From contig CP070695.1 of assembly GCA_020353515.1 (NCBI GenBank), positions 1,524,284-1,588,283 on the forward strand: 64,000 nt of DNA, read 5' to 3'. Shown piece after piece: positions 38,465-43,686 of this stretch. The notes below the pieces were generated by a model. The model saw only the letters and a program-made list of their open reading frames with translations. It was not told where the DNA came from and searched no databases. The position numbers and the translations under genes are program-made. Within the stretch, counting starts at the first letter, position 1. Each line of letters opens with the position of its first letter. The stretch is from Candidatus Heimdallarchaeota archaeon (GTDB taxonomy: Archaea; Asgardarchaeota; Heimdallarchaeia; Hodarchaeales; Hodarchaeaceae).

Positions 38465-40033
38465 ATGAAGCTGACTACTGACAACATTGTCCAAAAAATC
38501 ATGTACCAGACGAATTTCTCGAGAGAGGAAGTGTTACTTCAGATTAAAAACCTTGCAAAATCGCTAAAATATAGGAAGGAAGAGGGAAAAGTTGTTGTGG
38601 ACGAGGATCCGACAATCCCCAAGCTCCTCGCCCAAGAATGGAACGTGGATTTAGGTGATCCTTCTGATTACCTGTATACGGAACTCATCTTTGATAATTG
38701 GCCGTTGTTTGCCCGAATCATCCCGTTGACGACGGTAACAAAGGACAAAATTGTCAAAATACTCAAGACAATTGGGCCCGAACTAGAAGCACAACTCCAA
38801 CGGAAATCACGTAAGACTTACGGTTTAGAAAAGCACCATCCCTTTGGGAAAATTTTACTGTGGCAAAAAATCGTGGGGGATGATGTCTTTGTGAGGGATG
38901 GGATCTTATTTTACCTGAGACCTTATGTCGGAAGTTACGACGATGACGCCATTGATGATTCCCTTGTAAGTTATACATTTGAAGACATAATCACTCAAGC
39001 AGAACTGTATCGGACATTCACCGACTATAAGGTTGTTAAAACAGCTGATCCCCAAAAAACTTACATCCCATACTCACTGTTCGAGAAAATATACATTACA
39101 CCCCCTGAATGGATGGACCCAGATGAACGAAATCGTCATGGGTGTGTAAAGTTCCCTTACATCACTCTTGAAGCAGGGACGCCAGGAGTGGATACCCTTT
39201 TCTTTGTTAATTCAGCCACGAAGGAGATCGTCGGGATAGAAGCCCTACAAGACCATCCTACAATTCGGACGATTTGCATTGTAGATGGACATAACACCCT
39301 TGAAAAATTAGATTTCCCGCCAGACCTATCCCTCCCAAATCTTGAGCACCTGGAAATCCTTTATACCTCGCTCAGACACTCTCTAGATATCTCTTTCATA
39401 CAAAATTGCCCTAATTTAAGTACAATTATGTTAGAAATTTTGCCATATTCGCTTTCTCAATCTTCCACGCATGAGCTCATCATACCTCCATTAGTGAACC
39501 ATCAAAATTTAGAACAAATTAGTATAAGTGGGGGTTTCAAATCGATTATACTGACCCCTCCTTGGCATTGCCCAAATCTCCAAGAACTGTATCTTACTCA
39601 TAATTCCCTTAAAACAATAGACCTACGACCTCTTGAGAACTGTCCTAGTCTCCAAGTATTCATGCTAGATGATTTTCAAGCAAAAACCTTTAACTTAGAG
39701 CCATTCCGACACTGTCCTGATCTGGAAAAACTCAGTCTTTATGATAGCCAGATTGAAGAACTAGATCTTTCCCCCCTAAAACACTGTTTAAATTTACGCA
39801 GATTATTTCTATCACATAACCACTTGAAGAACATAGATTTTTCTCCTCTTAAAACCCATCCCTCTCTAGAGAAAGTGTATTTATCAGGGAACCAATTAGA
39901 AACCTTTGATCTTTCTCCTTTAATAGATTGCCCAAATCTTAGACTTGTGGATTTAACGAAAAACCCATTAACTAATCAGCCCTCACTTATGCTTACACAT
40001 TTCTATCAGAAGGATTTAGAAATTATTCTATAA
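38465..40033 (+). CDS. Leucine-rich repeat protein
   Basis: C-terminal repeats LxxLxLxxNxLxxIDLSPLxxCPNL. Confidence 0.85.
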   Translation: MKLTTDNIVQKIMYQTNFSREEVLLQIKNLAKSLKYRKEEGKVVVDEDPTIPKLLAQEWNVDLGDPSDYLYTELIFDNWPLFARIIPLTTVTKDKIVKILKTIGPELEAQLQRKSRKTYGLEKHHPFGKILLWQKIVGDDVFVRDGILFYLRPYVGSYDDDAIDDSLVSYTFEDIITQAELYRTFTDYKVVKTADPQKTYIPYSLFEKIYITPPEWMDPDERNRHGCVKFPYITLEAGTPGVDTLFFVNSATKEIVGIEALQDHPTIRTICIVDGHNTLEKLDFPPDLSLPNLEHLEILYTSLRHSLDISFIQNCPNLSTIMLEILPYSLSQSSTHELIIPPLVNHQNLEQISISGGFKSIILTPPWHCPNLQELYLTHNSLKTIDLRPLENCPSLQVFMLDDFQAKTFNLEPFRHCPDLEKLSLYDSQIEELDLSPLKHCLNLRRLFLSHNHLKNIDFSPLKTHPSLEKVYLSGNQLETFDLSPLIDCPNLRLVDLTKNPLTNQPSLMLTHFYQKDLEIIL

Positions 40034-40227
40034 AAGAGAGCGATTGCTCTCCAGTTTTTCCATTTACAACAGTACCGAGCCCTTAGGATTGTATTTCAAT
40101 TTGTGATTACTATGTGAATATATTGTAACCATTCATTGAACATAATTAATACTATCTCCCCTCTCCTGCCTTCGTCACTCGGTCATGGTCATTTTATAGT
40201 TAAAAGCGCTCCCACTTGGCCAATACT

Positions 40228-40235
40228 TTTATAAA
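40228..40235 (+). promoter_or_regulatory. TATA box of the tusA operon/leader
   Basis: TTTATAAA about 22 nt upstream of the first base of the long stem. Confidence 0.5.
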
Positions 40236-40256
40236 CTCACGCGCCCATTTGGTCAT

Positions 40257-40404
40257 TGGACAGCTTAGTCCTTAATTATGTCACCGCTTCCCTGTATGGG
40301 TGAGAAACAACTATTACGTTGATTCTTTCGCATCTCGGACAATCTTTCACTCAGGGGATTAAGCTGTTCACGCGCGTCTTTTCATCTCTTGATGATGAAA
40401 GACG
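40257..40404 (+). ncRNA. Candidate structured 5' leader / cis-regulatory RNA
   Basis: 17-bp stem 40257-40273/40354-40370 (13 Watson-Crick + 4 G-U pairs), internal helices, second hairpin 40375-40404. Confidence 0.6.
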
Positions 40405-40440
40405 ATAGTTACATTTCACGATAGATAGGAAGAATAGAAA

Positions 40441-40677
40441 ATGACTGAAGTACATCAAACATTAGATGCACGGAATTTGTCTTGTCCTATGCCTGTTTTA
40501 AAATCGAAAAAGGCATTGAAAGCCTTGGAAATTAACCAAGTGCTAGAAATTTTAGCTACTGATCCTGGGAGTATGGCGGACATTCCAGCCTGGACTCGTA
40601 CCACAGGTCAGGAACTCATTGCCGCGGAAGAGCGCGGGCCCAAAGATTATCGGTTTCTCGTTAAAAGACTGAATTAA
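40441..40677 (+). CDS. tusA: Sulfur carrier TusA
   Basis: LDARNLSCPMP, ATDPGSMADI. Confidence 0.92.
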   Translation: MTEVHQTLDARNLSCPMPVLKSKKALKALEINQVLEILATDPGSMADIPAWTRTTGQELIAAEERGPKDYRFLVKRLN

Positions 40678-40695
40678 AAATAAAATGGTGATATT

Positions 40696-41205
40696 ATGAC
40701 AGAATCTATTTCCCAAAGTGTTACTCTTCCAAGTGAAGAGAGACCCAAACGTATGGCAATTATTGCCTCTAAAGGTACTCTTGATGCAGCTTATCCTCCT
40801 GTGATTCTAGCATCAACAGCAGCAGCCATGGATATGGAAGTTGCAATTTTTTTCACATTCTATGGTTTTGACCTAATCCACAAGAAGCGTAGTAAAAAAC
40901 TGAAAGTTAGCCCCATTGCTAATCCTGCAGCTCCAATGCCTGTCCCAAATATCGTTGGAATGATTCCTGGGATGACTGGGATGGCTACTTGGATGATGAA
41001 GCGTTGGATGAAGAATGCCAACGTAGCCAAGTTTGAAGAATTACGAGAAGCGTGCATTGAAAGTGGAGTCAGAATGATTGCGTGTCAAATGACTATGGAT
41101 GTCATGGGCATCAAAGAATCCGACATTATTGATGGTGTCGAGACTGGTGGTGCCGCAGCATTCTTGGAATTCGCCAAAGACGCTGACATAACATTATTTA
41201 TGTAA
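40696..41205 (+). CDS. DsrE/DsrF/DrsH-like (DsrE2) protein
   Basis: SKGTLD.AYPP, FFTFYG, IACQMTMDVMG. Confidence 0.9.
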   Translation: MTESISQSVTLPSEERPKRMAIIASKGTLDAAYPPVILASTAAAMDMEVAIFFTFYGFDLIHKKRSKKLKVSPIANPAAPMPVPNIVGMIPGMTGMATWMMKRWMKNANVAKFEELREACIESGVRMIACQMTMDVMGIKESDIIDGVETGGAAAFLEFAKDADITLFM

Positions 41206-43104: not shown

Positions 43105-43686
43105 ATGTCAAATAGCAAGGTTAGATTCTTAATGTTGGATGAAAAAGACAAAGAGATTATTGATCACTTTCAGAAAAATCCTCGAGACTCATTCACTCAA
43201 GCTGCTAAAGAACTTGGTATGGCCAAGGGGACAGTGAAGAGACGATATGACAATCTAGTTGAAAAAAGACTGATTTCTGAAGGGATTGGATTAAACCTCT
43301 CCCAATTGAAATTCAGTCATGCTTTGTCTTTTATTGAAATCACAGATCCAGATACTGAGAAAGCAATCCTTGATTATTTCTATGAGTGTCCCCTTGTTAC
43401 AGCCATTTTTTCCCTCTCTGGTTTCGAGTACAATATTGTAGTCTGTCTTGTTGCCGATACCCGAGAAAAAATCACCACATTTATCGACACATTCCCCCTC
43501 AGTCATCTTCCAGGAGTTAAACGTAGGAATAGCTTTTTTGTCAAGGAGTCAGAAGGTTTTTCAGAGAAACCTTTTTGGCTTTTCTTTCCCAATGGTTCTA
43601 AAAAAATATTCAAACAATACGATTGTCAAGACAAGTGTGGTGCTTGTGGGGTTATCGAACGGATCACTGAAAAAGCCGAACCTTAA
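43105..43686 (+). CDS. Lrp/AsnC regulator with C-terminal Cys cluster
   Basis: LDEKDKEII...NPR, GTVKRR; C-terminal CQDKCGAC. Confidence 0.8.
   Translation: MSNSKVRFLMLDEKDKEIIDHFQKNPRDSFTQAAKELGMAKGTVKRRYDNLVEKRLISEGIGLNLSQLKFSHALSFIEITDPDTEKAILDYFYECPLVTAIFSLSGFEYNIVVCLVADTREKITTFIDTFPLSHLPGVKRRNSFFVKESEGFSEKPFWLFFPNGSKKIFKQYDCQDKCGACGVIERITEKAEP

What the first reader, a model, noticed from the sequence alone, without database searches (positions are those of the whole stretch)
40257..40440. Candidate novel archaeal riboswitch-like leader ahead of the sulfur-relay operon
Seen: about 22 nt after a TTTATAAA box, TGGACAGCTTAGTCCTT (40257-73) pairs without gaps with GGGGATTAAGCTGTTCA (40354-70). 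All four non-Watson-Crick positions are G-U on the + strand, which suggests selection on RNA rather than a DNA palindrome. Inside, TGGGTGAGA (40297-305) can pair with either TCACC (40281-85) or TTTCACTCA (40345-53), and these helices are mutually exclusive. A second hairpin (CGTCTTTTCATC/GATGAAAGACG, 40375-404) follows, and TCACGCGC occurs at both 40237 and 40368. Known: very few riboswitch classes are described in archaea, and I recognise no known family here. Inference: a leader of about 180 nt, or an sRNA, controlling tusA-dsrE-sqr in response to a sulfur or cofactor signal.
Basis: partly seen in the sequence, partly recalled or inferred. Interest (0 to 1): 0.8.

Follow-up and report, generated by a model that had tools for sequence, protein, structure and literature searches.

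The report
Structured leader RNA before sulfur-relay operon
The transcript of a sulfur-transfer operon in one genus of Asgard (Hodarchaeales) archaea starts with a conserved, folded RNA domain of about 115 nucleotides; it is real and under selection, but it looks like a lineage-specific 5'-end structure, not a demonstrated riboswitch.

Summary
A gapless 17-bp helix (40257-73 / 40354-70, four G-U pairs, all on the + strand) closes a folded domain that starts at the predicted transcription start, 29-30 nt after the TATA box at 40228-35. It lies upstream of tusA-dsrE2-dsrE-tusA-sqr-lrp. The element is single-copy in this 4.94-Mb Asgard (Hodarchaeales) genome, so it is not a MITE. It matches no Rfam family.

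All 22 orthologous operons I recovered, from 11 of 22 genomes of one genus plus metagenome contigs, carry such a leader. The six terminal pairs are kept in 21 of 21 distinct sequences, with three Watson-Crick types at one position. Helix conservation begins exactly at the predicted +1. Near relatives keep the domain at 91-96% identity, against 67-82% at four-fold sites.

The riboswitch reading is not supported:
- The interior cannot be aligned between subfamilies within the genus.
- The proposed alternative helices are broken without compensation in relatives.
- No Shine-Dalgarno sequestration or anti-SD complementarity exceeds chance.
- The element occurs at this one locus only.

My best reading is a lineage-specific cis-acting 5' domain that buries the transcript's 5' end, for stability or as a binding platform. 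It sits downstream of an Lrp-type operator triad. No RNA-seq data could be obtained.

The parts
40178..40257 (.). Three operator-like 16-bp sites at 32-bp phasing (40178-93, 40210-25, 40242-57) that bracket the TATA box. They are probably binding sites for an Lrp-type regulator. This is a DNA-level feature, not part of the RNA.
   Evidence: Relatives carry three copies of the same imperfect palindrome at 31-32 bp spacing (alignments A1/A2). An 8-mer half-site repeats at 64 bp in the window. An Lrp/AsnC gene lies in the operon. Binding is inferred.
40228..40235 (+). TATA box
   Evidence: Invariant in the six closest relatives. An AT-rich box sits at the same place in all 22 leaders.
40258..40258 (+). 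Predicted transcription start (G), 30 nt after the first T of the TATA box
   Evidence: The spacing to the helix start is fixed at 29-30 nt in 22 leaders. Pairs 2-7 are kept in 21 of 21 distinct sequences. The pair involving the preceding U is kept in only 13 of 21. The TSS is inferred, not measured.
40257..40273 (+). P1, 5' arm
40274..40286 (+). Junction strand J1/2. It is conserved in subfamilies A and A2, with one C-to-U change in L067.
40290..40300 (+). P2, a small hairpin (3 bp). Weakly supported.
   Evidence: It shows no double changes. Distant members G012 and L071 have a different small hairpin at the same place.
40302..40325 (+). P3 hairpin (4 + 4 bp around an internal mismatch)
   Evidence: Three pairs have changes on both sides.
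40344..40353 (+). Conserved 3' junction strand J3/1
   Evidence: Invariant in 10 sequences of subfamilies A and A2, apart from the last base.
40354..40370 (+). P1, 3' arm
40375..40404 (+). P4 hairpin downstream of the domain
   Evidence: RNAalifold gives 9 bp in 8 sequences, and 3 pairs each show one double change. It was examined only in subfamily A.
40426..40435 (+). Shine-Dalgarno-like box, invariant in subfamily A
   Evidence: It is predicted to be mostly unpaired.
40441..40677 (+). tusA, the first gene of the tusA-dsrE2-dsrE-tusA-sqr-lrp operon
   Evidence: Pfam TusA, E = 6.9e-24.

Best explanation
This is a real, selected, cis-encoded structured 5' leader RNA of the sulfur-relay operon. 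It is confined to one Hodarchaeales (Asgard) genus.

Shown:
- A long helix (P1) pairs the first nucleotides after the predicted start with a segment about 100 nt downstream. It encloses hairpins and conserved unpaired junction strands.
- The helix is kept by compensatory changes in every orthologous operon found.
- The domain evolves more slowly than four-fold degenerate sites in close relatives.

Inferred mechanism: the selected property is burial of the transcript's 5' end in a blunt terminal helix. This helix, with the compact domain it closes, would protect the mRNA from 5'-end-dependent decay or processing and so set its level. It would act after transcription initiation, which is probably controlled separately by an Lrp-type repressor or activator at three phased operator sites around the TATA box. 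The rapidly diverging interior would be needed only to stay compact, or would serve a lineage-specific partner.
For: - Outer helix and fold: 17-bp helix with four + strand G-U pairs. The + strand fold has z -2.78, against -0.92 for the - strand.
- Covariation in subfamily A (7 sequences): 90.8% of cells paired, against 36-53% when partners are slid. Seven pairs change on both sides. No shuffle of 500 reaches the covariation score.
- Breadth: 22 leaders were collected from the 11 genus genomes that carry a stand-alone tusA and from metagenome contigs. All have P1 in their minimum-free-energy fold.
- Terminal pairs: pairs 2-7 are kept in 21 of 21 distinct sequences. Position 5 reads C-G 8, U-A 9, G-C 3, U-G 1.
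- Position: P1 always starts 29-30 nt after the TATA box. Pairing conservation starts at the predicted +1 G and not one base earlier. A fixed position at the very 5' end is what end protection requires; a riboswitch aptamer does not need it.
- Selection: domain identity to the window is 91-96%, against 67-82% at four-fold sites, 61-79% in the adjacent spacer and about 47% further upstream.
- Specificity: this is the longest such helix among 14,863 TATA-like boxes in the genome.
- Subfamily G reduces the domain to a 45-nt 5'-terminal hairpin but keeps the terminal helix.
Against: - No transcript data.
- Simple end protection does not explain why unpaired junction strands are the best-conserved letters within subfamilies.
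- It also does not explain why domain length stays at 112-115 nt across six subfamilies with unalignable interiors. Both points suggest a specific fold or partner.
- At the distance of G008 and G007, the domain has diverged about as fast as four-fold sites (76-78% against 71-76%).
- 5'-end-dependent decay has not been studied in Asgard archaea. I am extrapolating from bacteria and other archaea on my own knowledge.
Confidence: 0.4

Rival explanations
1. A leader bound by a protein or an sRNA. The conserved unpaired junction strands presented by P1 would be the binding site of a lineage-specific trans-factor, for example a product of the operon (TusA, DsrE or the Lrp-like protein) or a base-pairing RNA. 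That factor would feed back on translation or stability.
For: - Within each subfamily the unpaired junction strands are the most conserved letters, while the hairpins covary.
- Both junction strands of subfamily A contain a UCAC core.
- Fast turnover of the motif between subfamilies suits co-evolution with a partner better than a fixed metabolite does.
- Regulation of a single locus is typical of autoregulatory leaders.
Against: - No partner has been identified.
- No RNA-binding domain is recognised in the operon.
- No complementarity to the SD region exceeds chance.
- There is no experimental data.
Confidence: 0.25
2. A metabolite- or ion-sensing riboswitch. A three-way-junction aptamer would sense a sulfur-related or cofactor ligand and switch expression of the operon.
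For: - The architecture resembles an aptamer: a closing helix, two hairpins with covariation, and conserved junction nucleotides that persist in G012 and L071 although the inner hairpins were replaced.
- Subfamily B shows the same design.
- The position is a 5' UTR upstream of a coherent metabolic operon.
Against: - No conserved core exists across subfamilies within one genus. Riboswitch ligand-binding domains are conserved in structure and in their ligand-contacting nucleotides (statement in PMC8241225).
- A riboswitch reading would need several unrelated aptamers at one locus.
- The proposed alternative helices suffer an uncompensated G-to-U change in G008 and G007, and are absent in G012 and L071.
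- SD and AUG are predicted to be mostly open.
- Anti-SD complementarity is no better than shuffles, mean z -0.13.
- No consistent U-tract terminator follows P1 (sequences).
- There is no Rfam match, even at E <= 10.
- There is one copy per genome and one gene context.
Confidence: 0.15
3. A stable small RNA of about 115 nt with paired ends. It would be released from the 5' end of the operon transcript by termination or processing and would act in trans.
For: - Paired 5' and 3' ends and a constant length of 112-115 nt are typical of stable small RNAs.
- Subfamily A has a pyrimidine- and U-rich stretch just after P1.
Against: - No consistent U-tract follows P1 in the other subfamilies.
- No second promoter lies between P1 and tusA, so read-through is needed to express the operon.
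- The interior is not conserved between subfamilies, so there is no conserved seed.
Confidence: 0.1
4. A DNA-level feature: a relic of a miniature inverted-repeat element, or a split palindromic protein-binding site, with no RNA function.
For: - Inverted-repeat arms flank about 80 bp.
- An 8-mer direct repeat lies nearby in the window.
Against: - The element is single-copy in the genome and in every relative.
- The direct repeat is absent from relatives and not adjacent to the arms.
- The arms keep pairing through double changes and use G-U pairs that are mismatches in DNA.
- The spacing between the arms varies from 31 to 101 nt, which does not suit a fixed protein dimer.
- The domain is conserved above four-fold sites.
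Confidence: 0.03

Closest known systems
Bacterial 5'-terminal stabiliser stem-loops (for example the ompA 5' UTR hairpin of E. coli and 5' stabilisers of Bacillus mRNAs); from my own knowledge
   Same: The helix includes the very first nucleotides of the transcript. Its position relative to the start is fixed. The leader is specific to one operon. The interior sequence is free to vary.
   Different: Here the helix is long-range and closes a domain of about 115 nt with conserved junction strands, instead of a simple hairpin (except in subfamily G). The host is an Asgard archaeon whose decay machinery is unstudied. No half-life data exist.
Three-way-junction riboswitch aptamers (purine and TPP type), and the only experimentally determined archaeal riboswitch, the fluoride riboswitch of Thermococcus kodakarensis (PMC8241225)
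   Same: A closing P1 helix, covarying hairpins, conserved unpaired junction nucleotides, and a 5' UTR position upstream of a metabolic operon.
   Different: There is no Rfam match. No core is conserved beyond a sub-clade of one genus. There is a single gene context. No expression platform is detectable. Ligand binding is untested.
Autoregulatory protein-binding mRNA leaders (for example ribosomal-protein operon leaders)
   Same: They are specific to one operon and vary between lineages. They are structured, with conserved unpaired recognition nucleotides.
   Different: No binding protein is known here, and there is no mimicry of a known RNA target.

Membership tests
Any Rfam family (riboswitches, leaders, sRNAs) | A covariance-model match at or near the gathering score | tested here: not met
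   The whole window at gathering threshold gave 0 hits. Positions 40000-40700 at E <= 10 gave only chance-level hits of 15-16 bits against cut-offs of 44-74. Nine related leaders at E <= 0.1 gave 0 hits.
Riboswitch (generic) | A ligand-binding core conserved in structure and key nucleotides across the taxa that carry it | tested here: not met
   Only the P1 base is conserved across 19 leaders of one genus. The junction strands are conserved only within subfamilies.
Riboswitch (generic) | Helices supported by covariation | tested here: met
   P1 and P3 have 7 pairs with changes on both sides, and no shuffle of 500 reaches the covariation score. Position 5 of P1 shows three Watson-Crick types across 21 sequences.
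Riboswitch (generic) | An expression platform: mutually exclusive structures that control the SD or a terminator | tested here: not met
   The alternative helices are broken without compensation. The SD is mostly unpaired. Anti-SD complementarity has mean z -0.13. No bacterial-type terminator lies in the leader.
Riboswitch (generic) | Direct, specific ligand binding | not testable with these tools
   This needs in-line probing, SHAPE or ITC.
5'-terminal stabiliser structure | A helix that begins within a few nucleotides of the transcript's 5' end | tested here: inconclusive
   The feature is met for the predicted +1. The TATA-to-P1 spacing is 29-30 nt in 22 of 22 leaders, and pairing conservation starts at that G.
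5'-terminal stabiliser structure | Prolongs mRNA half-life | not testable with these tools
   This needs decay assays with P1 mutants.
MITE or other mobile element | Many dispersed copies with target-site duplications | tested here: not met
   There is one copy in the 4.94-Mb genome and one per relative. The nearby 8-mer repeat is not adjacent to the arms and not conserved.
Archaeal C/D-box sRNA | Conserved C and D boxes with a K-turn | tested here: not met
   The only hit is a 15.6-bit match to sR20 at 40388-40440 (cut-off 44, E 1.9). The box-like letters are not conserved in relatives.
Archaeal bulge-helix-bulge processing site | A 4-bp helix flanked by two 3-nt bulges | tested here: not met
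   P1 is gapless over 17 bp in the window.
SECIS element | An associated in-frame UGA in a neighbouring gene | tested here: not met
   The operon ORFs are contiguous and full-length against Pfam models.

The most novel reading that the evidence does not exclude
The domain is a true ligand-sensing riboswitch, or a set of rapidly diversifying aptamers, for a sulfur-relay metabolite in Hodarchaeales. It would be the first riboswitch class native to Asgard archaea, which Eme et al. 2023 (from my own knowledge) and bioRxiv 10.1101/2025.02.26.640444 place among the closest relatives of eukaryotes. The conserved junction strands would form the binding pocket.
Probability: 0.15. Interest if true: 0.85.

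Novelty: new member of a known kind. Interest (0 to 1): 0.45.

Why it matters
I know of almost no described cis-acting RNA structures in Asgard archaea, and my literature searches found none. Only one natural riboswitch has been shown experimentally in any archaeon (PMC8241225).

This leader is supported by covariation, is specific to one operon, and starts at the predicted first nucleotide of the transcript. It is a concrete handle for studying post-transcriptional control and mRNA 5'-end biology in this lineage.

If a ligand or partner were found, it would point to the physiological signal that controls this poorly understood pathway. As it stands, it is a new RNA family of modest breadth and unknown effector.

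Tried and rejected
- **Transcript evidence.** The cultured Hodarchaeales strains with RNA-seq (bioRxiv 10.1101/2025.02.26.640444) have genomes of 7.9 and 6.75 Mb and do not match this 4.94-Mb genome.
- **Known RNA families.** Rfam gave nothing.
- **MITE.** Rejected, because the element is single-copy.
- **Leader peptide or uORF.** The two short ATG frames in the window's leader lose their ATG in relatives. The 118-120-aa 'TusA' gene calls in other subfamilies run through the leader and are probably miscalls.
Not supported by covariation.
- **Kissing interaction between the P2 and P3 loops.** Checked by eye on alignment A3 and found not consistent across sequences.
- **SD sequestration and anti-SD box.** No signal above shuffles.
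- **RNAalifold's nested version of P2.** Rejected in favour of a local hairpin, because G012 has an A/C-rich 3' junction that cannot form the nested version.
- **Wider distribution.** Model R1 found nothing in 61 genomes of 17 other genera of the class. Pattern scans of the genome and metagenome collections added only one contig, identical to G003.
- **Operator regulon.** A genome-wide scan for the operator-like motif gave 33 hits against 22 in the control, so no regulon could be defined.
- **A general feature of this genome.** 5'-terminal closing helices are no commoner at the predicted start than at control offsets.
- **Gapless pairing beyond the 7-bp core of P1.** Pairing of each arm with its own partner is only modestly better than pairing with partners from other subfamilies (5.8 against 4.3 of 9). 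Outside subfamilies A and B the helix is short or interrupted.

Full report
**Observation.**
The letters and coordinates are as reported. A TATA box lies at 40228-35. The 17-nt arm 40257-73 pairs without gaps with 40354-70, and all four non-Watson-Crick positions are G-U on the + strand. The 194-nt + strand RNA folds better than its shuffles (z -2.78, 0 of 200 shuffles as good), whereas the - strand does not (z -0.92). The 114-nt domain alone has z about -5. The inner alternative pairings, the second hairpin (40375-404) and the 8-mer direct repeat (40237 and 40368) are all present in this sequence.

**Context.**
The window lies in a single-contig 4.94-Mb genome. Record titles of the closest relatives name Hodarchaeota / Heimdallarchaeota / Promethearchaeota MAGs, that is, Asgard archaea.

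Downstream lie TusA (40441-40677), DsrE_2, DsrE, a second TusA, an SQR/FCSD-like flavoprotein and an Lrp/AsnC regulator. Upstream, an LRR-protein gene ends at 40033 with a terminator-like hairpin.

Around the TATA box there are three operator-like 16-bp sites at 32-bp phasing: 40178-93, 40210-25 and 40242-57. In relatives the same imperfect palindrome recurs three times at 31-32 bp spacing. This looks like a phased Lrp-type operator array. It is a DNA-level feature separate from the RNA element. Binding is inferred.

**Is it a repeat or a known RNA?**
Neither. It is single-copy in the genome. It matches no Rfam family at gathering threshold, and nothing credible appears at E <= 10. Nine related leaders also gave no Rfam hit.

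**Conservation and covariation among close relatives.**
Five genomes of the same genus carry the whole leader at 81-89% identity. Alignment shows that conservation switches on at the operator and TATA region, and that sequence further upstream cannot be aligned.

On a 7-sequence core alignment (A3), I tested a structure made of P1, a small P2 hairpin and a P3 hairpin:
- It pairs 90.8% of cells, against 36-53% when the 3' partners are slid by 1-3 columns.
- Seven pairs change on both sides.
- No shuffle of 500 reaches the observed covariation score.

A covariance model built from this alignment (R1) found exactly one strong hit per genome in 7 of the 22 genus genomes searched. Every hit lay in front of tusA. 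An eighth genome had a decayed remnant. Nothing was found in 61 genomes of 17 other genera of the class. Pattern scans of the genome and metagenome collections added only one contig, identical to G003.

**The family is wider than the model sees.**
I fetched contigs that encode close TusA homologues and added the remaining genus genomes, reaching 22 orthologous tusA-dsrE2-dsrE-tusA-sqr operons. Stand-alone TusA orthologues (78 aa, at least 79% identity) occur in 11 of the 22 genus genomes. Elsewhere in the class the higher-scoring TusA matches (about 60-81% identity) lie inside longer open frames of about 250-295 aa. The one I checked is a rhodanese-TusA fusion. Weaker matches in short open frames (about 47-62% identity) also occur there.

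Every one of the 22 leaders shares the following features:
- The same promoter layout.
- A helix whose 5' arm starts 29-30 nt after the first T of the TATA box, at the start position I expect from my own knowledge of archaeal promoter geometry.
- P1 in the minimum-free-energy fold.

Pairs 2-7 of the helix are kept in all 21 distinct sequences. Position 5 reads C-G 8, U-A 9, G-C 3 and U-G 1. The pair that would involve the preceding U is kept in only 13 of 21 sequences. Pairing conservation therefore begins exactly at the predicted +1 G (40258).

The enclosed interior falls into at least eight subfamilies that cannot be aligned with each other. The domain length nevertheless stays at 112-115 nt in six of them. 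It is 104 nt in one member and 45 nt in subfamily G. The spacer to the start codon varies from 48 to 73 nt.

Subfamily B (4 sequences) repeats the design of subfamily A. It has a 12-bp P1, an invariant unpaired 5' junction, a long hairpin with six pairs changed on both sides, and a conserved 3' junction.

**Selection.**
The table compares each relative with the window.

| Relatives | P1 domain identity | Four-fold tusA sites | Spacer after P1 | Sequence upstream of the operators |
|---|---|---|---|---|
| Five closest | 91-96% | 67-82% | 61-79% | 47-68% |
| G008, G007 | 76-78% | 71-76% | 56-59% | about 48% |
| G012, L071 | 62-64% | 47-48% | 39-49% | 45-48% |

The domain is constrained, but it turns over quickly on the scale of the genus. 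In G012 and L071 only P1 and the two junction strands (window 40274-86 and 40344-53) survive, and the inner hairpins were replaced.

**Testing the riboswitch reading.**
G008 and G007 carry a G-to-U change that damages both helices without compensation. G012 and L071 lack the segment altogether.
- *Translation.* In predicted ensembles the SD box and start codon are mostly unpaired in most leaders. The best interior-to-SD duplexes are no stronger than with shuffled interiors, mean z -0.13.
- *Termination.* No consistent U-tract follows P1 across subfamilies, and no bacterial-type terminator was found in the leader.
- *Core and regulon.* A riboswitch aptamer is expected to keep its ligand-contacting core across taxa (PMC8241225). 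Here the core changes within one genus, and the element serves a single locus.

These results do not exclude ligand sensing, but they remove the specific evidence that was offered for it.

**Other readings rejected.**
- *DNA palindrome or MITE relic:* the element is single-copy, uses G-U pairs, keeps pairing through double changes, and has arm spacing from 31 to 101 nt.
- *uORF:* the short ATG frames are not conserved.
- *SECIS:* there is no interrupted ORF in the operon.
- *C/D-box sRNA:* only a 15.6-bit chance hit, and the boxes are not conserved.
- *Bulge-helix-bulge site:* P1 has no bulges.
- *General property of this genome's transcripts:* across 14,863 TATA-like boxes, helices that start at the predicted +1 are no commoner than at control offsets. 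The tusA helix is the longest of them all.

**Most likely mechanism.**

| Reading | Probability |
|---|---|
| 5'-end burial for protection or controlled processing | about 0.4 |
| Binding platform for a protein or RNA partner | about 0.25 |
| Ligand-sensing riboswitch | about 0.15 |
| Released stable sRNA | about 0.1 |
| DNA-level feature only | about 0.03 |

The one feature kept in all 22 leaders is a blunt helix that contains the first six nucleotides of the predicted transcript. In the smallest variant nothing else remains. A position fixed to the nucleotide at the 5' end is what end protection or controlled 5' processing requires, and a riboswitch aptamer does not need it. I therefore favour a cis-acting 5' domain that hides the 5' end and so sets mRNA stability. 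It would act after an Lrp-type transcriptional switch.

This reading leaves two things unexplained: the conserved unpaired junction strands within subfamilies, and the constant domain length. Both point to a defined fold or a partner, which is why the protein- or RNA-binding leader ranks second.

**Limits.**
- No transcript data could be obtained, so the TSS, read-through and abundance are all inferred.
- P2 is weak.
- The helices inside subfamilies C to G rest on single-sequence folds.
- Related sequences are not independent, so shuffle statistics overstate support. The slid-partner controls and the multiple pair types at P1 position 5 are the more robust evidence.

Noticed in passing
window 40178-40257: Three operator-like 16-bp imperfect palindromes lie at 32-bp phasing and bracket the TATA box. 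Relatives have a cleaner consensus at 31-32 bp spacing. The likely binder is the Lrp/AsnC protein encoded at 43105-43686. In the window and in L057, the left half of the site nearest the start is degenerate and GC-rich.
   Followed up: partly
L014:1420-1555 (G013 contig 64): Only the 3' half of the subfamily-A domain remains, in decayed form with a 9-nt insertion, upstream of a 65%-identical tusA paralogue. The same genome also has an intact subfamily-B leader at another locus (L027).
   Followed up: partly
L065:1501-1857, L027 and proteins P0017, P0032, P0049, P0054, P0068: Public gene calls give TusA proteins of 118-120 aa whose N-terminal 40 residues are translated from the structured leader of subfamilies B and C. 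The conserved SD and ATG of the 78-aa form suggest these are miscalls.
   Followed up: partly
G000:C1:1608565-1608789 (L030:1502-2266, - strand), with similar hits in many class genomes: Paralogous TusA domains occur as the C-terminal part of rhodanese-TusA fusion proteins of about 250-295 aa. None of them has the leader.
   Followed up: yes
all leader subfamilies (for example L016:1341-1455, L015:1350-1464, L060:1339-1450, L061:1315-1428, L073:635-749): The domain length from the predicted +1 to the end of P1 is 112-115 nt in six subfamilies whose interiors cannot be aligned. The following spacer varies from 48 to 73 nt. This is unexplained.
   Followed up: partly
window 40036-40061: A terminator-like G+C-rich hairpin followed by a T-run lies directly after the upstream LRR-protein gene (38465-40033).
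   Followed up: no
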